Shown: positions 6,583-35,414 of the stretch, in pieces
How the letters are laid out: each line of letters begins with the position of its first letter
Numbering within the stretch: position 1 is the first letter of the stretch
From: Candidatus Woesearchaeota archaeon
GTDB lineage: Archaea; Nanobdellota; Nanobdellia; Pacearchaeales; GW2011-AR1
Direction: 5' to 3'
DNA: 35,533 bases
Assembly (NCBI GenBank): GCA_964502865.1
Contig: CAZCXX010000002.1
Coordinates: 1-35,533 of the forward strand
Notes under the pieces: generated by a model
Seen by the model: the letters and a program-made list of their open reading frames with translations, nothing else
Told to the model about the DNA's origin: nothing
Database searches by the model: none
Translations under genes and position numbers: made by a program

Positions 6583-6770
6583 CTATAGGAAATCGCTTTA
6601 ATAATCGTAATTTCTAACGCGATTTCCTATCTATCAAACAACACAACCACTACGAAAATTAATGTTGTTTGATATAGAGGACTTTGAAAAACCCCAAAGT
6701 CCTCTATCGAACCGCTTTGAAAACCCTCGAAGGACATCGAAATTGGAGGGTTATTCAAAGCTCTCTATAG
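6583..6770 (+). repeat. Hairpin-repeat family B, copy 1 (four consecutive TAG...CTA-footed hairpins)
   Basis: CTATAG-GAAATCGC[22 nt]GCGATTTC-CTATC; TATCAAACAACA[19 nt]TGTTGTTTGATA; TAGAGGACTTT[10 nt]AAAGTCCTCTA; CTTTGAAAACCCTC[17 nt]GAGGGTTATTCAAAG-CTCTCTATAG. The first two hairpins recur at 13258..13350. Confidence 0.85.
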
Positions 6771-7211: not shown

Positions 7212-7898
7212 TTACTCAGTAATCAGCGTTCCTTTAAATGGCTTATTGTGGAGAATATTTGTGAGCTGTTTACAATCTGGACCTATAATGTAGGTGGTGA
7301 TACGCCTTTTCCGGATGATTGTCGCCGCTTTTTGATCTAAGACAAAATGCTGTCCTGGAACATAGGGTTTACTATGGGCGAGTTTTTCAAAAACAGCCCA
7401 TGACACTTGAGGGACCAGTTTAGCATTTGTATTGGTGTATGGATCTGCAGTATGGAGACCTGAAGTGTTAGTCATATTGATAAATTGCGTGTTTAAGTAT
7501 TGGGCAAGGCGAGCGGCAGTACTATCGGATGTTGAATCGGGCACGTAGCGGAGTGCGCCGCAGATGACGACATTATTCGTTGGAAGATTGTCTTTGACGG
7601 TTTGCATGGTTGCAGGCAGGATGTCATTGGCTTCCACACCGAAAAATTGCATGAGGAAGCGGGCATTCATACGTGTTGCACGAATGCCTGCAAGTGCTTG
7701 CTCGTATTCTGAGAGATGAACTGCACGCAAGGTGTCCATGTACTTTCTCGCGATGGAGCCGCCACCACAGACGATAACGAATCGGTAATGAGCATAATGG
7801 CTTCTGAGTTCTTCTCTGAACCGTTTCAGAAACGGAGTATCCATGGGATCGGGCACTATAAGCGAACCGCCGAGCGAGAGCACCACCACCTTTTTCAT
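7212..7898 (-). CDS. pyrH: Uridylate (UMP) kinase, archaeal type
   Basis: Amino-acid-kinase fold motifs are present: LSLGGS, VCGGGSIARKY, GIRATRMNA, STSDSTAARLA, TNTSGLHTADP and a ...GTLI C-terminus. TATTTAAATA lies about 25 nt upstream. Confidence 0.85.
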   Translation of the reverse strand: MKKVVVLSLGGSLIVPDPMDTPFLKRFREELRSHYAHYRFVIVCGGGSIARKYMDTLRAVHLSEYEQALAGIRATRMNARFLMQFFGVEANDILPATMQTVKDNLPTNNVVICGALRYVPDSTSDSTAARLAQYLNTQFINMTNTSGLHTADPYTNTNAKLVPQVSWAVFEKLAHSKPYVPGQHFVLDQKAATIIRKRRITTYIIGPDCKQLTNILHNKPFKGTLITE

Positions 7899-8120
7899 TC
7901 CACCAAAAAGAAGATTTGTTATTTAAATATGCCGGATTGACATTCCTTTTCTTTTTCAACTTTATTTTCTAACGTGGAGAGATATCCTTTCAGTTTTTCA
8001 TTTTTTTAAAAGAAAATTGTTTTTGGTTTATATGGCAGACAAAAAAATAGCCTCAGTAAATAAGGAGCGCCGTAGGCGCGACGCGCCCGACATGGAGATT
8101 TTGCCATTGGAAAAGAGGGA

Positions 8121-8333
8121 GTGAAAGTGCGCTTAAGGGTGATTAGGCGAAACTGACTTCTGTAGATTATTTTTTAAGAAACAATAGTTCGATAAACATG
8201 CACTCTTCTTTCTTCCGCTCCGCTTAAATCATGTCGTAGAAAATAACGCTCACGCGTTTAATCCGATTTAAAAGAAATTACCGAGAAATACTAAAAGAAA
8301 TTTGTTTTCCCGCCCAATAGGAGAAATTGTTGC
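8121..8333. repeat. Left arm of a degenerate long inverted repeat flanking ORF 8384..8668
   Basis: Seven collinear blocks have reverse-complement partners in 8699..8905: GTGAAAGT, GTGATTAGGCG, CTGACTTCTG, CATGCACTCTT, AATTACCGAG, AGAAATTTGTT, GAGAAATTGTTGC. Confidence 0.75.
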
Positions 8334-8383
8334 AAGACTATCTCAATCACAAAATATAAAAAGGTAAACTTTGTAGATTAAGT

Positions 8384-8668
8384 ATGTATAGCAAGACGGC
8401 AATCATTTCTCTTATTATCGGAATAATGACTATTGTTTCAATACCAGTTATGCATTTATACGGAGGTTTTATAATTCCAGATTTTCCAGAAGAGATGTCT
8501 TTATTTTCATTTTTGGGTGTAATATTAGCAATTGTCTCTTTTTTTATAATTAAGAAAAAAGATTTAGAAGGTTTATGGGTTGCTGTGTTTAGTGCGATAT
8601 TAAATCTAGGGGCGATACTTATCCACTTTTATTTTCAGTCCTTTAAAATAGGGCTTAATGTTTCATAA
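8384..8668 (+). CDS. Small membrane protein (about 3 TM helices)
   Basis: The 94-aa ORF is strongly hydrophobic. AATATAAAAA (8353-8362) lies about 22 nt upstream of the ATG. The gene sits between the inverted arms. Confidence 0.55.
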   Translation: MYSKTAIISLIIGIMTIVSIPVMHLYGGFIIPDFPEEMSLFSFLGVILAIVSFFIIKKKDLEGLWVAVFSAILNLGAILIHFYFQSFKIGLNVS

Positions 8669-8698
8669 AAACTTGTAGCTCACACGAAAAACGAAGAC

Positions 8699-8905
8699 GC
8701 AACAATTTCTCGGATTAAAATTTCCCACCCTAACAAATTTCTAAAAAGCTCGGTAATTACGCTCCAGAAAAGAGTGCATGCAGAAGTCAGCTCACGAGAG
8801 CTTTCGGAGCTAGCTCACGTTCCTTTGGAACCGCCTAATCACGAGCAAACGGCCGATTACTTACTTTATCCTAAAGTATTTCCTGCGTGGAAATCATACT
8901 TTCAC
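8699..8905. repeat. Right arm of the degenerate long inverted repeat
   Basis: Partner blocks occur in mirrored order: GCAACAATTTCTC (8699-8711), AACAAATTTCT (8732-8742), CTCGGTAATT (8749-8758), AAGAGTGCATG (8770-8780), CAGAAGTCAG (8781-8790), CGCCTAATCAC (8832-8842), ACTTTCAC (8898-8905). Confidence 0.75.
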
Positions 8906-9074
8906 CCAACTTCCAGCGCAGATTAATTAGAGGGAACGCTTATTTCTATTGGAATTGACATCCCAAGTTGTTTTAGAACTCTCTTGAGAATTTCCTCTTT
9001 TGCTCGCTTTTTGAAACTAAGTATTCCTATGCTTTTAATCTCTTGCGTTTCTCTATCTTTAGTAATTATAAATA

Positions 9075-9686
9075 TCACTTGAAGATCTCTCCTGTTTCAT
9101 GGCTCCAAAAAAGGAGGTCGAGGTGGTCGAGAGGGATGTTGATTTTTTGAGAGAAGGAAAGGAATTGTTTTTCTAATTCGAGGTAGTGGGCTTTGTTTTT
9201 TATTCTTAAATCAGAGGGAGAGATGACTTTCAATTTAGCGAGGTTACGGAGGATGTGGCGATCGAGTATGGCGACTTGGTTGTCGCTACAGCCTATATTG
9301 CGGAGAAAATGGCCTGCTTCTTTAAGGCCGTAGCCGTTAATGTTTTCAGCCAGCCAGTTGCGGAGGAAGAGGCGATCTGTGTCTTGAAGGCGTTTTTGGA
9401 CGTCAGGCCAAAGAGCGAGATTTTTGAGGATGTAAGAGGCCTTATTTTTATGGAAACGTGTACGAGTTTGGAGGATCGGAATGAGCGCTTGTTTGGTGAT
9501 GAGGTGGAGTTTGACTATTTCTTCAACGGCGGACCAACACCGATGAGCGTTGCTCTGGGGAGTAAGTGTACAAAATAGAAATTCGTGAAAGTGTTGTTCT
9601 GGAGAGAGTTTTTTGAATGATGCTAGTTTTGTTGTAATTACTTGCTTACATTTGGAGTAATGTGCACGTAATTCTTCTTTTTTCAT
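9075..9686 (-). CDS. ogg: 8-oxoguanine DNA glycosylase / AP lyase, archaeal Ogg2 type (HhH-GPD)
   Basis: The 203-aa protein contains FCTLTPQSNA, GYGLKEAGHFLRNIG and AILDRHIL, which are the catalytic Lys and Asp context of Ogg2 enzymes. Confidence 0.8.
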   Translation of the reverse strand: MKKEELRAHYSKCKQVITTKLASFKKLSPEQHFHEFLFCTLTPQSNAHRCWSAVEEIVKLHLITKQALIPILQTRTRFHKNKASYILKNLALWPDVQKRLQDTDRLFLRNWLAENINGYGLKEAGHFLRNIGCSDNQVAILDRHILRNLAKLKVISPSDLRIKNKAHYLELEKQFLSFSQKINIPLDHLDLLFWSHETGEIFK

Positions 9687-9716: not shown

Positions 9717-9906
9717 CTATAGTGGAAGACCTAAGTCCTTCCCCTAATAGCAGACGACACATCAAGAATTATCGAGGCTTCAATTCTTGACTGCGCTCAA
9801 GGACTTCGAGAATATGCTTATTCTCGACAGTGATCAAGAATTGGTAAATTCTTGACATTAGCAAATCCTTGACGGAACGGGGAGAAACTTATGTCGTCTG
9901 CTATAG
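9717..9906 (+). repeat. Hairpin-repeat family A, copy 1 (longest, doubly nested)
   Basis: CTATAGTGGAAGACCTAAGTCCTTCCCCTAATAGCAGACGACA...[internal hairpin modules]...GGGGAGAAACTTATGTCGTCTGCTATAG. The ends match the copies at 18230, 23895 and 29681. Confidence 0.9.
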
Positions 9907-9914
9907 CGTATTTT

Positions 9915-11615
9915 TTAGATCAAACCTGCTTTGTGATGATTTTTAAGAAGTGATTTAACATGATGGACATCATCTATTTCATACGCAAAGTGATGTCCTA
10001 CTTTTGAGCCATGGCGGCGAGGTTTGTATTCAATCCAATATTTTTCAGGAGCAATTACCTGGGGAACGGGTAACACGAGGACCGGCTTTTTCTTTAGACT
10101 TTGAACTGGCGAGGTATTTGGATTTGGCGCAGCGCTCTGGGCAAGGGCTTCTGCTTCTTGTGCAACTTGTTCTTCCGCTATCTCGGCTTGCAATGCAATT
10201 TCCTCTTCAGTTGGTTTTGGTGGATGTATTTTTTCCCAGGTGGCGCTCGCAGTTTCCTTTACAGATTCATAATATTCTCGAGGATGGATCTTAGGAATAT
10301 GGTCAGTTACAGTATGTACATACTCACTTACTGGAAATTCCGAGATGTTCTCTTTTATGCGCTCATAATAGAGCAGAGGGTGAAATTTTGGAAGATGGAG
10401 TGCACGTCGGAGACGGGACGCACTGATCTGTGGATGAGGGAGATGGACTGACTTGATGTGCACGTCAGGGAGTTTAAGTTGCGGCAGATTTACATTTACA
10501 TCAGGCAATCGTAGTACGGGCAATTTTTCAATTAAATTATTTTTTTTTATGATACGAGCGCTTTTGTAAATCCTGTTCTTTAGGGCGGCGGTGGGAATCG
10601 TGTTTTTGATTCTATTGATAAGAGTGGAGAGCTTAATGCGAGGTCCATGGTTATCGTGAATGTTTATATGGGGAAGGGCAACTTTGGGAAGTTCCAAGTG
10701 ATGTAAGTGCACTGTGGAAAGCGAGAGGTGCTTTACATTGATTGGTGAGACCATCACACTCGAGAATTCCGGAAGTTTCAGTTCAGGCCAGTGTATTTGA
10801 GGGAGATGATGTACAGCATGTGGTGACGACGTTTCTTTTGAGAGAAGCAGTTGTCTCGCAGGTTTATTCGGCAGTTGAACACGTGTAAATACTTTAGTTG
10901 GGCGGATATTCTTGAGCTTATCGATAACCGATCGGACTTTATTTCTAAAGTTTTTCAGGTCTATCGTCGGAATATGGAACATGGGCTGAGTGGATGGCGG
11001 CAGTTGTGGGCTAACAGACATTAGTTTGTCAGCAAGTGCTTCCTGTTTCTGAATTGCTTTGGGATTTCTTTGTAATCGAAGTGCTTCTTTTTCCGCACGT
11101 TTTCGTGCTACATCTTCGATTATAAGTTTTTTGAAGTCAATTAGCAACTCGTGCATTTGTAGATCTTCGAGGGGTTTTCCTGAGTACGCGTATTCAATCA
11201 CTTTTTTCAGGATATTTGATGCAGAAGTCTGTTCTTTTTTTTCAAGTTGCAGTATCATCTCTGCGTAGGGTAATCTTTTCCCGACCTTGTATTCTTTAGA
11301 GAAATATTTACGAACTATGATGTCCATAACGTATAGTTTGTTAACCGCATCATCTTTACTAGAAATAAGCTGATTCAGTTCATCGATTAATTCGAGTTTT
11401 GGCGGTGGACCTTGGGCAAGTGTTGTTACCAGCCTTTCTTGTGGGGCAGGTTCTTTCTTAAAAAAACGGATGATTGTGGGAAATGGATTTAATGAATGTT
11501 CTTCCTGAACCGCCCCAGGAGTAATTTCTAATGCCTCAGGTTTTTTACTTTTTTTTAATTCGTGCTTTGCTTTAGCATGAGTAGCGTGCGACGCACGAAC
11601 CCTCTTTTTTTTCAT
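9915..11615 (-). CDS. Hypothetical protein with internal short LP-rich repeats
   Basis: ORF 9915..11672. I prefer the start at MKKKRVRAS (ATG 11613-11615), with TTTTTATAC about 20 nt upstream. It has a basic N-terminus and repeated (K/R)LP(D/E)(V/F)-type motifs (LRLPDVNVNLPQLKLPDVHIKSVHLP; LKLPEF...LELPKVALP). No known family. Confidence 0.6.
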   Translation of the reverse strand: MKKKRVRASHATHAKAKHELKKSKKPEALEITPGAVQEEHSLNPFPTIIRFFKKEPAPQERLVTTLAQGPPPKLELIDELNQLISSKDDAVNKLYVMDIIVRKYFSKEYKVGKRLPYAEMILQLEKKEQTSASNILKKVIEYAYSGKPLEDLQMHELLIDFKKLIIEDVARKRAEKEALRLQRNPKAIQKQEALADKLMSVSPQLPPSTQPMFHIPTIDLKNFRNKVRSVIDKLKNIRPTKVFTRVQLPNKPARQLLLSKETSSPHAVHHLPQIHWPELKLPEFSSVMVSPINVKHLSLSTVHLHHLELPKVALPHINIHDNHGPRIKLSTLINRIKNTIPTAALKNRIYKSARIIKKNNLIEKLPVLRLPDVNVNLPQLKLPDVHIKSVHLPHPQISASRLRRALHLPKFHPLLYYERIKENISEFPVSEYVHTVTDHIPKIHPREYYESVKETASATWEKIHPPKPTEEEIALQAEIAEEQVAQEAEALAQSAAPNPNTSPVQSLKKKPVLVLPVPQVIAPEKYWIEYKPRRHGSKVGHHFAYEIDDVHHVKSLLKNHHKAGLI

Positions 11616-11680
11616 AGGTGAAGGAGGGCACGCATGTATAAAAACATATCGAGGAGGTGTGTTGTCCCGCACTTAACCCT

Positions 11681-13257: not shown

Positions 13258-13444
13258 TATAGGAAATCACTTTAATAATCGTAATATTCTAACGTGATTT
13301 CCTATCTAGCAAACAACAAAAAAGCTACGAAAATTAATGTTGTTTGCTATAAGGAGAATTATAGGAAAAGAAATTAATTTTCGTATCTTTCTTTTCCTAT
13401 CTATCGAGTGAAAAACTTCCGAAAACTTATTTCCCTCGATATAG
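13258..13444 (+). repeat. Hairpin-repeat family B, copy 2
   Basis: TATAGGAAATCAC[22 nt]GTGATTTCCTATC; TAGCAAACAACA[19 nt]TGTTGTTTGCTA; ATAGGAAAAGAAA[14 nt]TTTCTTTTCCTAT; TATCGAG-TGAAA...ATTTC-CCTCGATATAG. It starts 13 nt after tRNA-Trp. Confidence 0.85.
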
Positions 13445-18229: not shown

Positions 18230-18304
18230 CTATAGTGGAAGATCTAAGTCCTTCCCCTAATAGCAGACGACAAACTGGGGAGAAACTAATGTCGTCTGCT
18301 ATAT
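18230..18304 (+). repeat. Hairpin-repeat family A, copy 2 (short form)
   Basis: CTATAGTGGAAGATCTAAGTCCTTCCCCTAATAGCAGACGACA-AACTGGGGAGAAACTAA-TGTCGTCTGCTATA. It starts 2 nt after the helicase stop. Confidence 0.9.
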
Positions 18305-19236: not shown

Positions 19237-20280
19237 ATGAAGCGAGTGGTGATTATTGGTGGCGGATTTGCTGGTACACTCATTGCAAAAAAATTACAAT
19301 CTCATTTTGCGGTTACACTTATCGACAGTAAAAACTATTTCGAGTTTACTCCAGGGATTTTAAGAACTATTGTTGAACCAGCACATTGGAAACATATACG
19401 CGTGCTTCATCGGCAGTATTTGAAAAGAACTAAACTTGTCCTTGGCATTGTTTCCAGCGTGGCAGAACATGATGTGCGCATTGGAAAACATCACTTGCCT
19501 TTTGATTACTTAGTTATTTGCTCTGGGTCAAGCTATAACTCGCCTATCAAAGAGCAACATGTCGTGCTGCCAGTGCGTGCGAGACATTTAATCGATGCTC
19601 ATCGAAGGCTCGAGAAGGCAGCGCGAGTGCTCATTATTGGCGGAGGGCTCGTCGGCGTTGAGCTTGCCGCAGAGATCATTACGCACTATCCCAATAAGGC
19701 GGTAAGCATTGTCCACCCATACCAATTTTTGATTGAGCGTAACCATTTGAAATCTAGAATATATGCTGCAGCCTTCTTAAAAAAGCGAGGAGTGGATATT
19801 ATTTATTGTGATAGAGTGAAGAGGAATGAGCATGGTGCATTTGTGACTGAACAAGGGAGAACATTACATGCAGATATTACATTTTTGTGTACCGGCATTA
19901 CTCCTAATTTTTCGTTTCTCGATGGTACTTTTAAACATGTTTTGAATGAACGAAATCAAGTTCGAATTAACCAGCATTTACAAGTTAAGGATTTTGAGCA
20001 TATTTTTGCTGCAGGAGATATTACTGACAGTGTTGTGGAAAAAACTGCACAAAATGCGGAAAAACAAGCAGCTGTTGTCGCGGCTAATATTCGCGCACTT
20101 GAGCGCGGAGAGGTATTGCGTTCGTATGCTCCACGCCGAACCTCACAAGTTATCAGCTTAGGAAAATGGGACGGTATTTTTGAAGTGGGGGAACATATCA
20201 TTACCGGTCTAGTTCCTGCGTATATGAAATCAGCGATTGAAAGACGAGAGATGTGGCGGCGCGGGTGCTTGTTTAGATAA
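19237..20280 (+). CDS. FAD-dependent pyridine nucleotide-disulfide oxidoreductase (NDH-2 / AIF-like)
   Basis: I prefer the start MKRVVIIGGGFAGT at ATG 19237. A second dinucleotide fold is VLIIGGGLVGVELAAE, and the C-terminal region has FAAGDIT. Confidence 0.8.
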   Translation: MKRVVIIGGGFAGTLIAKKLQSHFAVTLIDSKNYFEFTPGILRTIVEPAHWKHIRVLHRQYLKRTKLVLGIVSSVAEHDVRIGKHHLPFDYLVICSGSSYNSPIKEQHVVLPVRARHLIDAHRRLEKAARVLIIGGGLVGVELAAEIITHYPNKAVSIVHPYQFLIERNHLKSRIYAAAFLKKRGVDIIYCDRVKRNEHGAFVTEQGRTLHADITFLCTGITPNFSFLDGTFKHVLNERNQVRINQHLQVKDFEHIFAAGDITDSVVEKTAQNAEKQAAVVAANIRALERGEVLRSYAPRRTSQVISLGKWDGIFEVGEHIITGLVPAYMKSAIERREMWRRGCLFR

Positions 20281-21646
20281 AATTCTCGCTGGTGAGTACT
20301 TGTTCAAGCTCTTGTATTGCATTATCGGGCTTTTGATTGCTCTCGAGCGTATACTCCCAAAGCCGGTTTGCCTGCCCATCAAAAACCGCGATTCTATTCC
20401 AATCAAGCTCAATTCTTCCCCCATTTCTGAGCCCCTTGTTTTTGTAGGTGGCTGCTTTTCCTTTTACTGCAGCGATTGTTTGTGGAGGCGCATGCATTGC
20501 ATTTATGATTTCTTCTTCAGTAATCCAACGCTCGATCCAACCGTCATTATCCTGAATTTGATAAAATAAGCCCCCACTATCTATGCGGTGGTAATCCAGC
20601 CCAATACTTTGTATGAGTGCGCTTCCCGTATCTAGACCCGTATCTGTCATGTACTGTTCTATGAGGTATTTTTTTGTCACCCAGTCAAGTCTTCCTGCTA
20701 GTGCATACGGATCTTCTTTAATTCGTGCAAGGAGTTTGACCGTTTCTTCAAAACAATCGATAACGCTGTCTCTGAACGCATTTTGACCATAGAGTTCGCC
20801 CTTTATTGCCGAACAATACTTCTTGTAAACATCTGTCAGCCTTCTGTACTCTACAGGAGTTCCTTCCAGTGACCATTCAGCTTGCTGTTCTGAAAGAGAA
20901 TACATATCACTTACAGCTTTCTGCGTATCGTAAGGTATATGGGGAAGCAAATTGGCTTCAGCAAGATCAAGCATACATCTCCATAACTCTGTTTTTAAGA
21001 CAACCGCACTTTCACACATATTTCCATCGTTGCTAATATGATGAAACCGTTTCCAGGGTGCAAAATCTCCTTGATCGCGAAGATTAAGAAGTGCACGCCG
21101 TTGTGTTGTACAGTTTGAGAACGGTTCGAGAATGAACGGTCGTCGCTGGAGCAAATCATAACGTCCATTTAGATAATGGTATCCTGCGCCGGTAATCACT
21201 TTTTCAATAACTGACCAGAGTAAGAGGGGTGCTCGCGCTTCTTCTGAAGCAACAATCGTGGTACTGAAATTGAGATGACTTCCAAATGAAACTTTTGCAT
21301 CCCTATTTGTTTTGTATACCATCGGATTAAGATTTTTATCAATGAGCGTGAAGATTTGTTGTTCCATCGCTTTTTCATATCTTAGTAGGTCGAGGGTATT
21401 ATCAACAATTGGCGTGCATCCTTCAAGATGTTTTAAATCAATGTATGTTTCCCCTCCATTTTCGAAATAATGACGGCCCTTAATGAGATCTTGCAGATAT
21501 TCATCTCGCTTTTCGTCATCTTCTATTGCATTTAAGATTACTGCAAATTCGTGCTCAATGCCGCACAATCTATTTTCTAGTACACTTTCTTTTCTTTCAT
21601 GCTTTTGCTGTCTTTGTTTTAGAAGTTCTATTATTCTTTCTTTCAT
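20273..21646 (-). CDS. PafA/Dop-family carboxylate-amine ligase homolog (Pup-ligase-like)
   Basis: By-eye motif matches to M. tuberculosis PafA along the whole length: GIEHEFAV, NGGETYIDLKHLEG, YKTNRDAKVSFGSHLNF, ITGAGY, LLQRRPFI, LNLRDQGDFAPWKRFHHISNDGNMCE, LDWVTKKYL, LDYHRI, HAPPQTIAA, ELDWNRI. At about 457 aa it is PafA-sized and has no Dop-type loop. I prefer ATG 21644-21646 to the TTG at 21652. Confidence 0.8.
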   Translation of the reverse strand: MKERIIELLKQRQQKHERKESVLENRLCGIEHEFAVILNAIEDDEKRDEYLQDLIKGRHYFENGGETYIDLKHLEGCTPIVDNTLDLLRYEKAMEQQIFTLIDKNLNPMVYKTNRDAKVSFGSHLNFSTTIVASEEARAPLLLWSVIEKVITGAGYHYLNGRYDLLQRRPFILEPFSNCTTQRRALLNLRDQGDFAPWKRFHHISNDGNMCESAVVLKTELWRCMLDLAEANLLPHIPYDTQKAVSDMYSLSEQQAEWSLEGTPVEYRRLTDVYKKYCSAIKGELYGQNAFRDSVIDCFEETVKLLARIKEDPYALAGRLDWVTKKYLIEQYMTDTGLDTGSALIQSIGLDYHRIDSGGLFYQIQDNDGWIERWITEEEIINAMHAPPQTIAAVKGKAATYKNKGLRNGGRIELDWNRIAVFDGQANRLWEYTLESNQKPDNAIQELEQVLTSENFI

Positions 21647-21673
21647 GCTCAACAGGAAAGGGAAAAGGGGTTT

Positions 21674-23894: not shown

Positions 23895-23968
23895 TATAGT
23901 GGAAGACCTAAGTCCTTCCCCTAATAGCATACGACAAAACGAGGAAAAACTAATGTCGTATGCTATAG
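23895..23968 (+). repeat. Hairpin-repeat family A, copy 3 (short form, compensated stem)
   Basis: TATAGTGGAAGACCTAAGTCCTTCCCCTAATAGCATACGACA-AAACGAGGAAAAACTAA-TGTCGTATGCTATAG. It overlaps the last codons and stop of the antiporter gene. Confidence 0.9.
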
Positions 23969-29710: not shown

Positions 29711-29816
29711 TAGCAGATGACACATCAAGAATTATTGAGGCTTCAATTCTTGACTGCGCTCAAGGATTAGCAAATCCTTGACGGAACGGGGAGAAACTTA
29801 TGTCGTCTGCTATAGT
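29681..29816 (+). repeat. Hairpin-repeat family A, copy 4 (intermediate form)
   Basis: TATAGTGGAAGACCTAAGTCCTTCCCCTAATAGCAGATGACA-[TCAAGAATT..AATTCTTGA; TCAAGGA..TCCTTGA]-GGGGAGAAACTTATGTCGTCTGCTATAG. Confidence 0.9.
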
Positions 29817-29857: not shown

Positions 29858-29939
29858 GCCCACGTGGGACAGCGGCACTCCGCATGCTTGGAGAGCATGT
29901 TTCCGAAAGGATTCCCAGGTTCGAATCCTGGCGTGGGCG
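29858..29939 (+). tRNA. tRNA-Ser(GGA)
   Basis: Acceptor GCCCACG/CGTGGGC, anticodon stem CATGC/GCATG with loop TTGGAGA, a long variable arm (TTTCCGAAAGGATTC), T arm CCAGG-TTCGAAT-CCTGG, discriminator G. Confidence 0.85.
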
Positions 29940-35316: not shown

Positions 35317-35414
35317 TTTGGCGGAGTACTCCGCCAAACATCGAGAATCCTGTGTTTTTGATTCTCGAGTGTGCTCAAGAATCTCAAAATAGACGAGAAG
35401 ATTCTTGACATTAG
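35317..35414 (+). repeat. Hairpin modules including family C (TCGAGAAT..ATTCTCGA-N6-TCAAGAAT..ATTCTTGA-CATTAG)
   Basis: TTTGGCGGAG-TA-CTCCGCCAAA (35317-35338); TCGAGAAT[12]ATTCTCGA (35341-35368); TCAAGAAT[18]ATTCTTGA (35375-35408); CATTAG. The same two-stem module sits nested inside repeat A1 at 9806-9861. Confidence 0.8.

What the first reader, a model, noticed from the sequence alone, without database searches (positions are those of the whole stretch)
8121..8905. A small membrane-protein gene with its own TATA box is bracketed by degenerate inverted arms of about 210 bp (foldback-like cassette)
Seven sequence blocks of 8-13 nt in 8121-8333 have reverse-complement partners in mirrored order in 8699-8905. 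An example is GAGAAATTGTTGC (8321) pairing with GCAACAATTTCTC (8699). Another is GTGATTAGGCG (8139) pairing with CGCCTAATCAC (8832).
The blocks are separated by unequal, unrelated spacers. Between CTGACTTCTG and CATGCACTCTT there are 34 nt on the left and 0 nt on the right. The arms enclose only ORF 8384-8668 (94 aa, about 3 TM helices) and its promoter-like AATATAAAAA.
This many collinear inverted matches is very unlikely by chance. The layout fits either an old cargo-carrying element with long terminal inverted repeats, or the nested-hairpin process seen elsewhere in the window with a gene caught in the innermost loop.
Basis: seen in the sequence. Interest (0 to 1): 0.65.

Follow-up and report, generated by a model that had tools for sequence, protein, structure and literature searches.

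The report
Gene cassette bracketed by matched inverted arms
A small membrane-protein gene in a DPANN archaeon (Pacearchaeota) sits between two ~250-300-bp inverted non-coding arms that belong to a dispersed, apparently undescribed family whose arm pairs enclose different genes in related genomes and co-vary module by module, which points to a new kind of gene cassette.

Summary
There are 7 collinear exact inverted blocks (74 nt); 1000 shuffles gave at most 37.

The arms are not decayed transposon ends. Profiles built only from other genomes find the left arm (8121-8337, minus strand, E=1e-45) and the right arm (8675-8929, plus strand, E=3e-43). Both belong to one family of non-coding elements in Pacearchaeota/Woesearchaeota metagenome genomes. 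The family has a distinct left type (T3) and right type (T12).

The layout T3-gene(s)-T12 recurs around unrelated genes in five other modules (L102/L107 gene 1, L107 gene 2, L101, L104, L021). The two arms of one module carry complementary blocks with module-specific sequences. Arms of neighbouring modules usually do not match.

The "unrelated spacers" are arm-specific hairpins, some with strong covariation.

Ten relatives keep ogg next to pyrH, so the ~0.9-kb module (about 8040-8960) is an acquisition. ORF94 is a real, rare, leaderless 3-TM gene. Its homologues elsewhere lack full arms.

The mechanism is not established. I favour pairing of the arms in single-stranded DNA that serves cassette movement or exchange. 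No recombinase, empty site or circular form was found. There is no Rfam or viral-contig match, and two targeted full-text searches returned nothing describing this.

The parts
8041..8120 (-). Outer part of the left arm. It holds an A-run plus TAGCC (8041-8052), a GC-rich hairpin module (8064-8091) and junction-like sequence. The junction-like part contains ATTGGAA (8106-8112) and AGAGGGA (8114-8120), both repeated directly at the right end.
   Evidence: Homologous to L102 1-100 and to the L021 T3 3' region, with a compensatory hairpin (GGCGC-GAA-GCGCC versus GCGCC-GTA-GGCGC). The GC hairpin module also stands alone upstream of the ORF94 homologue in L009.
8121..8337 (-). Left arm, family type T3. 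The family 'sense' orientation is on the minus strand. Blocks: A 8121-8128, B 8139-8149, C 8153-8162, D 8197-8207, E 8276-8285, F 8296-8306, X (direct motif) 8307-8315, G 8321-8333.
   Evidence: A T3 profile built without the window hits 8337-8121 on the minus strand, E=9.8e-46.
8349..8383 (+). Promoter of ORF94. The TATA box AAATATAAAAAGG is at 8352-8364, and its TATAAAAA core (8354-8361) ends 22 nt before the ATG, so the mRNA is probably leaderless (inferred).
   Evidence: DNA homology with L002 and L003 starts at 8349, and the TATA box is conserved.
8384..8668 (+). ORF94, a 94-aa protein with three hydrophobic helices and no known family.
   Evidence: Three homologues at 85, 70 and 58% identity. 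Nine representatives at E<1e-3 among 1.8 billion proteins. No Pfam or NCBIfam match. Hydropathy.
8675..8929 (+). Right arm, family type T12; it starts at the stop codon of ORF94. Blocks: G' 8699-8711, X 8722-8730, F' 8732-8742, E' 8749-8758, D' 8770-8780, C' 8781-8790, B' 8832-8842, A' 8898-8905. Local hairpins: 8793-8819, 8819-8831, 8863-8877, 8878-8894.
   Evidence: A T12 profile built without the window hits 8675-8929 on the plus strand, E=3.2e-43. 8748-8788 is identical in the window, L101, L102 and L104c. Hairpin covariation: 91% of cells paired, 13 of 17 pairs compensatory, 0 of 500 shuffles as high.
8929..8960 (+). Outer tail of the right arm (AGAGGGAACGCTTATTTCTATTGGAATTGAC). It resembles the junction region at the start of the left arm (8114-8157), so the module has a diverged direct repeat at its two outer ends.
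   Evidence: Comparison by eye with intact tail-to-tail units in L104, L105 and L106. This is weak and counts as inference.

Best explanation
The segment from about 8040 to about 8960 is one copy of a family of gene cassettes found in Pacearchaeota and related DPANN archaea.

Each cassette has a left arm (type T3) and a right arm (type T12). Each arm is roughly 250-300 bp, and the two lie in inverted orientation around one to five genes. The genes next to the arms read outward into them. The two arm types share a fixed series of short segments (here A-G). Between those segments each type has its own hairpin inserts.

Within one cassette the shared segments are exact Watson-Crick complements of each other. 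Between cassettes their sequences differ. So each gene is enclosed by its own long interrupted stem.

In this window the cassette carries a leaderless, TATA-driven gene for a 94-aa membrane protein. It was acquired in the spacer between ogg and pyrH, which are direct neighbours in several relatives.

Shown: family membership of both arms; recurrence around unrelated cargo; co-variation of arm pairs per cassette; covarying local hairpins; ancestral ogg-pyrH adjacency.

Inferred:
- The arms pair in single-stranded DNA, for example during replication or DNA transfer. This would bring the two outer junctions together for a recombinase acting in trans, or keep a defined unit for cassette exchange.
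- The arms, into which the cargo genes read, also act as transcription stops or insulators.
For: 1. The inverted blocks are far above chance.
2. Leave-one-out profiles find the left arm (E=9.8e-46) and the right arm (E=3.2e-43).
3. Family copies were found in two JGI metagenome contigs, in GTDB metagenome-assembled genomes (MAGs) and in ENA contigs.
4. T3-cargo-T12 with significant collinear inverted chains occurs in six modules:
   - window: 74 nt
   - L102/L107 gene 1: 45 nt
   - L107 gene 2: 68 nt, shuffle maximum 25
   - L101: 52 nt
   - L104 b-c: 46 nt
   - L021: 56 nt at k=7, shuffle maximum 49, so this one is marginal
5. The complementary blocks are module-specific. Examples are CATGCACTCTT/AAGAGTGCATG, GATTTGCTCTT/AAGAGCAAATC and CTTCCCGAGT/ACTCGGGAAG.
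6. Arms of neighbouring modules in one tail-to-tail unit mostly do not match: L104 a/b 10 nt, L107 U1 17 nt, L106 not significant.
7. Local hairpins of T12 covary: 13 of 17 pairs, 0 of 500 shuffles as high, slid controls 31-46% paired against 91%.
8. The order ogg-pyrH-p30-pheS holds in 10 related loci, with ogg-pyrH gaps from 26 nt.
9. Block edges show no excess of G-U-type mismatches (6 and 14 against 18 transversions). The TATA box lies between the left arm and the ATG. Both points favour DNA over the cargo mRNA as the pairing molecule.
10. Predicted single-strand folds enclose the gene in the window and in L107 gene 2.
Against: No recombinase, transposase or integrase is in the window ORFs scanned (28 ORFs in 1-29710; ORFs beyond ~29.7 kb were not scanned) or next to the other modules.

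No empty site, excised circle or clean target duplication was seen.

ORF94 homologues (L002, L003, L009) and homologues of the 365-aa cargo (L111, L112/L113) lie in other contexts without full arms. Arms and cargo are therefore not obligately linked.

T12 always starts at the stop codon of a gene on the same strand. That also fits a plain 3'-end element.

Two adjacent-arm pairs (L105, L107 U2) are partly matched.

Only six modules were examined, all from metagenome assemblies. No transcript data exist.
Confidence: 0.6

Rival explanations
1. The arms are two independent copies of an intergenic mosaic repeat that settles at gene 3' ends, in the manner of bacterial REP/BIME, BOX or Correia elements. 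Their inverted placement around ORF94 is incidental, and the shared blocks only reflect common descent.
For: T12 begins at or within about 50 nt of the stop codon of a gene on the same strand in every copy seen. T3 follows a gene on the same strand in L104, L106 and L021. The arms are mosaics of small modules that also occur alone: the GC hairpin in L009, G'-X-G in L003 and a 51-nt insert in X. The window holds other abundant hairpin repeat families. ORF94 homologues lack full arms.
Against: The two arms around one gene carry module-specific complementary blocks in 6 of 6 modules. Arms of different modules that lie next to each other mostly do not. Independent insertions would not give this pattern. 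In the window, L102 and L101 the T3 copy has no gene reading into it.
Confidence: 0.17
2. The arms act as RNA. A read-through transcript, for example the ogg-to-pyrH transcript on the minus strand, folds the two arms into a long stem. The stem loops out the inserted gene, insulating or processing it in the way archaeal rRNA processing stems do, or circularising the enclosed RNA.
For: The RNA fold of 8100-8930 is more stable than shuffles on both strands: z=-3.65 on plus and z=-5.38 on minus. ogg and pyrH are ancestrally adjacent and co-oriented. The architecture of helices separated by unequal side hairpins, with compensatory change, is what structured RNAs show.
Against: The helices are almost purely Watson-Crick, with no excess of G-U on either strand. 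The left arm lies upstream of the cargo promoter in four single-gene modules, so it is not part of the cargo mRNA. No bulge-helix-bulge geometry is visible at the helix junctions; the B/C junction has 3 nt opposite 41 nt. There is no Rfam match and no RNA runs are available.
Confidence: 0.13
3. This is the nested-hairpin process of the first reader. A cassette [G-promoter-ORF-G'] was inserted into the loop motif X (TTCCCRCCC) of a pre-existing long foldback hairpin (...F-X-F'...) and duplicated X. The outer blocks are older layers of the same process.
For: X is a direct repeat on both sides of the innermost stem in all modules. L003 has G'-spacer-X-TAG-G right after the ORF94 homologue, which is the junction expected from a circularised cassette. 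X is split by the same 51-nt hairpin insert in a T12 copy (L105/L021) and in a T3 copy (L106). Elsewhere in the window a hairpin (9747-9904) carries a 115-nt multi-hairpin insert at its stem-loop border, and the uninserted form exists in the metagenome.
Against: No empty F-X-F' hairpin was found in 106 loci. The left X (CCCGCCC) and right X (CCCACCC) differ in the same way in three modules. They are therefore inherited with the arm types and not made anew at each insertion. G/G' are shared by modules with different cargo.
Confidence: 0.1

Closest known systems
Integron gene cassettes (ORF plus attC), including clusters of attC sites that lack an integrase, as reported in Archaea (PMC9668308)
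   Same: Short accessory genes, including ParE toxin-antitoxin genes, small membrane proteins and ORFans, are separated by imperfectly palindromic non-coding sites. Arrays occur. The sites are more alike within a genome. Folding of single-stranded DNA is the likely working form. The site follows the gene on the same strand.
   Different: The arms are 250-300 bp each, so a unit is about 500 bp, against 57-141 bp for attC (from my own knowledge of attC). The pairing is between the two sides of a gene, not within one site. No R''/R' core sites (RYYYAAC/GTTRRRY) were recognised. No IntI was found. Cargo genes have their own promoters. The left and right arms are different types.
MITE-flanked or TIR-bounded cargo units (composite MITE structures, foldback-type elements)
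   Same: Two related non-coding repeats in inverted orientation bracket cargo. The units are non-autonomous, present in several copies per genome, and here inserted between conserved neighbours.
   Different: The inverted similarity lies next to the cargo and fades towards the outer ends, the reverse of terminal inverted repeats. No target-site duplication or transposase was found. The complementary segments are module-specific rather than one shared transposase-binding sequence.
pdif modules of Acinetobacter plasmids (genes bracketed by inversely oriented XerC/D sites)
   Same: Discrete gene modules are bounded by inverted sites. Neighbouring modules share or abut a junction. The cargo is accessory and includes toxin-antitoxin genes.
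   Different: pdif sites are 28 bp and uniform (from my own knowledge). Here the arms are about ten times longer, structured and module-specific. No Xer-type site was identified.
Bacterial intergenic mosaic repeats (REP/BIME, pneumococcal BOX, Neisseria Correia elements)
   Same: Extragenic and often at gene 3' ends. Built from conserved modules and variable hairpin modules. Many copies per genome.
   Different: Those are 30-300 bp units that fold on themselves. They are not known to occur as subtype-matched pairs enclosing a gene, and they are bacterial.
Archaeal rRNA processing stems
   Same: Long inverted repeats on both sides of a gene form a helix that encloses it.
   Different: Those act in RNA and carry bulge-helix-bulge cleavage motifs. 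Here the enclosed genes code for proteins with internal promoters, the helices lack G-U pairs, and no such motif was seen.

Membership tests
The T3/T12 arm family defined here | Sequence match of each arm to a profile built from copies in other genomes only | tested here: met
   Left arm 8337-8121 on the minus strand: E=9.8e-46, 148.6 bits. Right arm 8675-8929 on the plus strand: E=3.2e-43, 141.1 bits.
The T3/T12 arm family defined here | Architecture T3 (antisense) - gene(s) - T12 (sense), with arm-to-arm complementary blocks in fixed order | tested here: met
   Window chain of 7 blocks, 74 nt. The same layout occurs in L102/L107 gene 1, L107 gene 2, L101, L104 b-c and L021.
TIR transposon / MITE | Inverted repeats at the very termini of the element | tested here: not met
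   Beyond blocks A/A' the outer 80-60 nt of the two arms are not inverted copies. They share short direct motifs instead (AGAGGGA, ATTGGAA).
TIR transposon / MITE | Target-site duplication flanking the element | tested here: inconclusive
   The outer ends can only be placed to within about 10 nt (about 8036-8041 and about 8960). No clear duplication is present at those points.
TIR transposon / MITE | A cognate transposase in the genome | not testable with these tools
   None among the 28 ORFs scanned in 1-29710 of the 35.5-kb window (ORFs beyond ~29.7 kb were not scanned) or in the fetched flanks. The rest of the genome is not available.
Integron cassette / attC | attC site of about 57-141 nt that folds on itself, with R''/R' core sites | tested here: not met
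   Each arm is about 250-300 nt. As a whole, the individual arms fold little better than shuffles (z from +0.6 to -4.0). The complementarity is between the arms. No core sites were seen on reading the sequence.
Integron cassette / attC | Integron integrase nearby, or arrays of cassettes in one orientation | tested here: inconclusive
   No integrase was found. Short arrays of 2-3 modules exist (L104, L107), but with genes in both orientations.
Known RNA families (Rfam 15) | Match to a covariance model | tested here: not met
   Only tRNAs reach the gathering score in the window. Nothing meaningful appears at E<=10 in 7850-9120 or in L101/L102.
Archaeal bulge-helix-bulge processing stem | Two 3-nt bulges on opposite strands separated by a 4-bp helix | tested here: inconclusive
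   No systematic scan was run. The helix junctions read from the sequence are 3/41, 34/0, 68/11, 10/6 and 14/20 nt, and none has the 3-4-3 geometry.
REP/BIME- or BOX-like intergenic mosaic repeat | Multi-copy, extragenic, modular, with hairpin modules | tested here: met
   Three arm copies lie within 3.5 kb of L104. Further copies at the window genome's depth are in run X1. Modules also occur singly. This describes the building material and does not explain the matched pairing around genes.

The most novel reading that the evidence does not exclude
DPANN archaea may carry a so far undescribed class of gene cassette. Each gene or small gene set would be enclosed by its own 'addressed' long-range DNA stem, formed by differentiated left and right arms whose pairing segments co-evolve per cassette. 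A structure-specific recombination system, not yet identified, would use the folded single strand to excise, insert or swap whole cassettes at variable slots such as the ogg-pyrH spacer.
Probability: 0.3. Interest if true: 0.9.

Novelty: new variant of a known kind. Interest (0 to 1): 0.72.

Why it matters
DPANN archaea have tiny genomes and few recognised mobile elements. How they gain and shuffle accessory genes is poorly understood.

A cassette system with long, module-specific pairing arms would be a new route of gene flux in these organisms. It would also be a new example of folded single-stranded DNA (or RNA) used as a recognition device.

There is a practical point as well. The arm profiles give a handle to find such cassettes and their cargo across metagenomes. 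They also explain long 'empty' intergenic regions in these streamlined genomes.

If the arms turn out to be only 3'-end repeats, they are still an unreported, strongly conserved structured element family in Pacearchaeota.

Tried and rejected
- A gapped local alignment of the left arm against the reverse complement of the right arm found only the 13-nt block. It was no better than shuffles, so block chaining was needed.
- An exact 30-mer from the window is not in the GTDB genomes.
- Rfam gave nothing at gathering score or at relaxed thresholds.
- Scans of viral contigs with three arm patterns gave nothing.
- No RNA runs hold the region.
- The joints reported when contigs of run X1 were laid on the window (8228>8305, 8331>8722) first looked like an 'empty' hairpin. 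They are separate arm copies on one contig of another genome (L104), chained by the tool.
- The idea that block A is a split hairpin 5 of T12 was dropped after aligning intact units.
- The idea that AGAGGGA is a host target duplication was dropped because the motif lies inside sequence homologous to other T3 copies.
- Comparing sense and antisense folding energy gave a strand bias that disappears in z-scores, so it is a composition effect.
- A tail-to-tail 'unit' (T12 followed by T3) as one palindromic RNA was rejected because its two halves mostly do not match.
- Nested inverted chains in other AT-rich loci consist of low-information AT-rich 10-mers spread over more than 1 kb, so I did not treat them as comparable; no shuffle control was run on them.
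- Literature searches for such repeats in DPANN or Pacearchaeota found nothing relevant.
Full report
**1. The observation**

The window is a chromosomal stretch of a DPANN archaeon of the Pacearchaeota/Woesearchaeota group.
- It encodes PheRS alpha and beta, an RNase P p30-like protein, a PyrH-type kinase (7212-7898, minus strand) and Ogg (9075-9686, minus strand).
- The nearest GTDB genomes are Pacearchaeota, Woesearchaeota and Nanoarchaeota metagenome-assembled genomes (MAGs).

- Between 8100-8345 and 8690-8930 there are 7 exact inverted matches of at least 10 nt. Dinucleotide-preserving shuffles give 0.11 on average and at most 3.
- The best collinear chain is 74 nt in 7 blocks. Shuffles give a mean of 8.5 and a maximum of 37 in 1000 trials.
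- A second, independent assembly of the same population (L001) is identical in this region.

**2. The gene inside**

ORF 8384-8668 encodes 94 aa with three hydrophobic helices.
- It has three homologues at 85, 70 and 58% identity among 5.8 billion clusters.
- A profile search of 1.8 billion representatives finds nine proteins at E<1e-3, eight of them 64-101 aa long.
- There is no Pfam or NCBIfam match.
- DNA homology to the relatives runs from 8349 to 8675-8680. That span covers the TATA box (8352-8364), the ORF and a few bases more.
- The TATA core (8354-8361) ends 22 nt before the ATG, so the mRNA is probably leaderless (inference).

The homologues lie in other contexts and have no full arms:
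- L002: behind a tRNA gene that I read by eye as tRNA-Gln, and RIO1
- L003: behind a tRNA gene that I read by eye as tRNA-Glu
- L009: another context again

**3. What the arms are**

A 21-nt piece of the right arm found two JGI metagenome contigs. A gapped pattern found three GTDB contigs. A left-arm pattern found one more.

Reading and aligning these showed that the right arm is one copy of a roughly 300-nt non-coding element, which I call T12.
- In every copy it starts at or within about 50 nt of the stop codon of a gene on the same strand.
- A stretch of 41 nt (window 8748-8788) is identical in four copies from different samples.

The left arm is a copy of a second, related type, T3.

Profiles built without the window sequences recover both arms:
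- left arm 8337-8121, minus strand, E=9.8e-46
- right arm 8675-8929, plus strand, E=3.2e-43

T3 and T12 share the same ordered series of short segments. In the window these are A, B, C, D, E, F and G. Other copies have a further inner one, GGCGGCTCAC. Each type also has its own inserts:
- T12 has two hairpins between C' and B' and three more beyond B'.
- T3 has 68 nt between E and D, a hairpin between D and C, and a GC-rich hairpin at its outer end.

So the 'unequal, unrelated spacers' are type-specific modules conserved across genomes. They are not decay.

Three T12 hairpins show strong covariation:
- 91% of cells are paired, against 31-46% when the partner columns are slid.
- 13 of 17 pairs show compensatory changes.
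- 0 of 500 shuffles reach the observed values.

No Rfam family matches. The arm patterns are absent from the viral contig collection.

**4. The arms come in matched pairs around genes**

Mapping both profiles on all loci gives the same layout around unrelated cargo: T3 (antisense), then gene(s), then T12 (sense).

| Module | Cargo | Collinear inverted chain | Shuffle maximum |
|---|---|---|---|
| window | ORF94 | 74 nt (7 blocks) | 37 |
| L102/L107 gene 1 | 365-aa protein | 45 nt | 33 |
| L107 gene 2 | 278-aa protein | 68 nt (7 blocks) | 25 |
| L101 | 216-aa protein plus an ORF of about 50 aa | 52 nt | 34 |
| L104 b-c | two divergent genes | 46 nt | 33 |
| L021 | five genes, including a ParE toxin gene | 56 nt (k=7) | 49 |

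The L021 chain is only marginally above its shuffles.

The complementary segments differ between modules but stay complementary within a module. At the position of block D:
- window and L102: CATGCACTCTT/AAGAGTGCATG
- L021: GATTTGCTCTT/AAGAGCAAATC
- L107 gene 2: CTTCCCGAGT/ACTCGGGAAG

The positions of blocks B, C, E and the inner block behave the same way.

Where two modules abut, the T12 of one meets the T3 of the next tail to tail. Those two arms mostly do not match:
- L104 a/b: 10 nt
- L107 U1: 17 nt
- L106: not significant
- L105 and L107 U2: partly matched

The unit that evolves together is therefore arm-gene-arm. In multi-gene modules the outer genes read outward into the arms.

**5. The module is an acquisition here**

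The order (orf248)-ogg-pyrH-p30-pheS holds in ten related loci, with ogg-pyrH gaps as short as 26-103 nt. In the window the gap is 1176 nt.

In five relatives the same spacer holds other single genes on the opposite strand, without arms. The spacer looks like a variable slot.

In L021, the closest relative by PyrH (74%), a T3/T12 module with different cargo lies on the same side of pyrH and in the same orientation.

Homologues of the 365-aa cargo in other genomes (L111, L112/L113) have short flanks without arms.

**6. DNA or RNA?**

Predicted single-strand folds enclose the gene in a long interrupted stem.
- Window, RNA parameters: z=-3.65 on the plus strand and z=-5.38 on the minus strand.
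- Window, DNA parameters: z=-2.48.
- L107 gene 2: the same topology is predicted.
- The individual arms fold only modestly better than shuffles.

Two points argue against pairing within the cargo mRNA:
- The helices end sharply. At their edges there are 6 and 14 G-U-type mismatches (sense and antisense) against 18 transversions.
- In the four single-gene modules a TATA-like box lies between the inner end of the left arm and the ATG. The left arm would then lie outside the mRNA (inference).

I therefore favour pairing in single-stranded DNA. Read-through RNA is the main alternative. No transcript data are available.

**7. Hints of nested insertion**

The 9-nt motif TTCCCRCCC (X) lies between F and G in the left arm and between G' and F' in the right arm. 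It is in the same orientation on both sides, in all modules.
- In L003 the ORF94 homologue is followed directly by G'-spacer-X-TAG-G.
- X is interrupted by the same 51-nt hairpin in a T12 copy (L105/L021) and in a T3 copy (L106).

These fit insertion into a hairpin loop. Two observations weaken that reading:
- The left and right X differ in the same way in three modules, so they are inherited with the arms.
- No uninterrupted F-X-F' was found.

**8. What is missing**

- There is no recombinase among the 28 window ORFs scanned (1-29710; ORFs beyond about 29.7 kb were not scanned) or in the fetched flanks.
- There is no empty site or circular form in the one public run that holds the locus. That run is available only as contigs.
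- The outer ends can be placed only approximately, at about 8036-8041 and about 8960. They carry a diverged direct repeat, AGAGGGA...CGCTTA...TGAC, rather than inverted termini.

**9. Comparison with known systems**

The nearest analogues are integron cassettes, including attC clusters without an integrase in Archaea (PMC9668308), MITE-bracketed cargo units, pdif modules and bacterial mosaic repeats.

The defining features of a TIR transposon (inverted repeats at the termini) and of attC (size, self-folding, core sites) were tested and not met. The mosaic-repeat description fits the building material but not the matched pairing around genes.

Two full-text searches (DPANN with 'miniature inverted-repeat'; Pacearchaeota with intergenic, repeat and non-coding RNA terms) returned nothing describing this architecture.

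**10. Verdict**

The finding is real. What the element is rests on good evidence. How it moves or acts is inference.

Noticed in passing
window 9747-9904; also 18260-18302 and 23924-23966: A 13-bp-stem hairpin family (ATAGCAGACGACA ... TGTCGTCTGCTAT, 17-nt loop) sits just beyond gene ends. The copy at 9747-9904 carries a 115-nt multi-hairpin insert right at the stem-loop border. Contigs of run X1 hold the uninserted form, and depth there reaches about 740x against about 6x for the genome.
   Followed up: partly
window 6585-6707 and 13259-13400: There are two copies of a composite of 12-13-bp-stem hairpins (ATAGGAAATCRC..., TAKCAAACAACA...) in intergenic DNA. A further hairpin set with TCAAGAATT stems occurs at 9762-9855, 29725-29781 and 35341-35408. 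This genome is unusually rich in perfect intergenic hairpins.
   Followed up: no
window 9915-11672 (minus strand): A 585-aa ORF without Pfam domains lies between ogg and the orf248 homologue. In eight related loci orf248 is directly next to ogg, so this gene looks like a second insertion beside the cassette.
   Followed up: no
L011, L012, L022, L028, L049 (ogg-pyrH spacers): In five relatives the ogg-pyrH spacer holds a single gene on the opposite strand (134, 160, 196, 158 and 62 aa), without arms. On reading, these genes look unrelated to one another. The spacer seems to be a recurrent slot for foreign genes.
   Followed up: partly
L009 170-215: The GC-rich hairpin module of the T3 outer end (GAGGCGCGAAGCGCCGATCGCGCCCGAC) stands alone directly upstream of the promoter of the 58%-identical ORF94 homologue.
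   Followed up: no
L002 4883-4955 and L003 4766-4838: In two relatives the ORF94 homologue lies just downstream of a tRNA gene. By eye I read the anticodons as TTG (Gln) and TTC (Glu). This is a classic position for integrated DNA. The tRNAs were not confirmed with ARAGORN.
   Followed up: no
window 20273-21652 (minus strand): A 459-aa ORF matches Pup_ligase (PF03136, E=2e-47). A PafA/Dop-like protein is unexpected in a DPANN archaeon.
   Followed up: no
window 29858-29939: ARAGORN calls a tRNA-Ser (GGA) that Rfam's tRNA model did not report at gathering score.
   Followed up: no
L102:388-1485 / P0013: The 365-aa cargo of the L102 module has a weak Mrr/HSDR_N-like restriction-endonuclease signal. 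It has at least 146 homologues at 54-100% identity in Pacearchaeota/Nanoarchaeota. It is thus a widespread lineage gene rather than a rare accessory gene, yet it is enclosed by arms in this one genome.
   Followed up: partly
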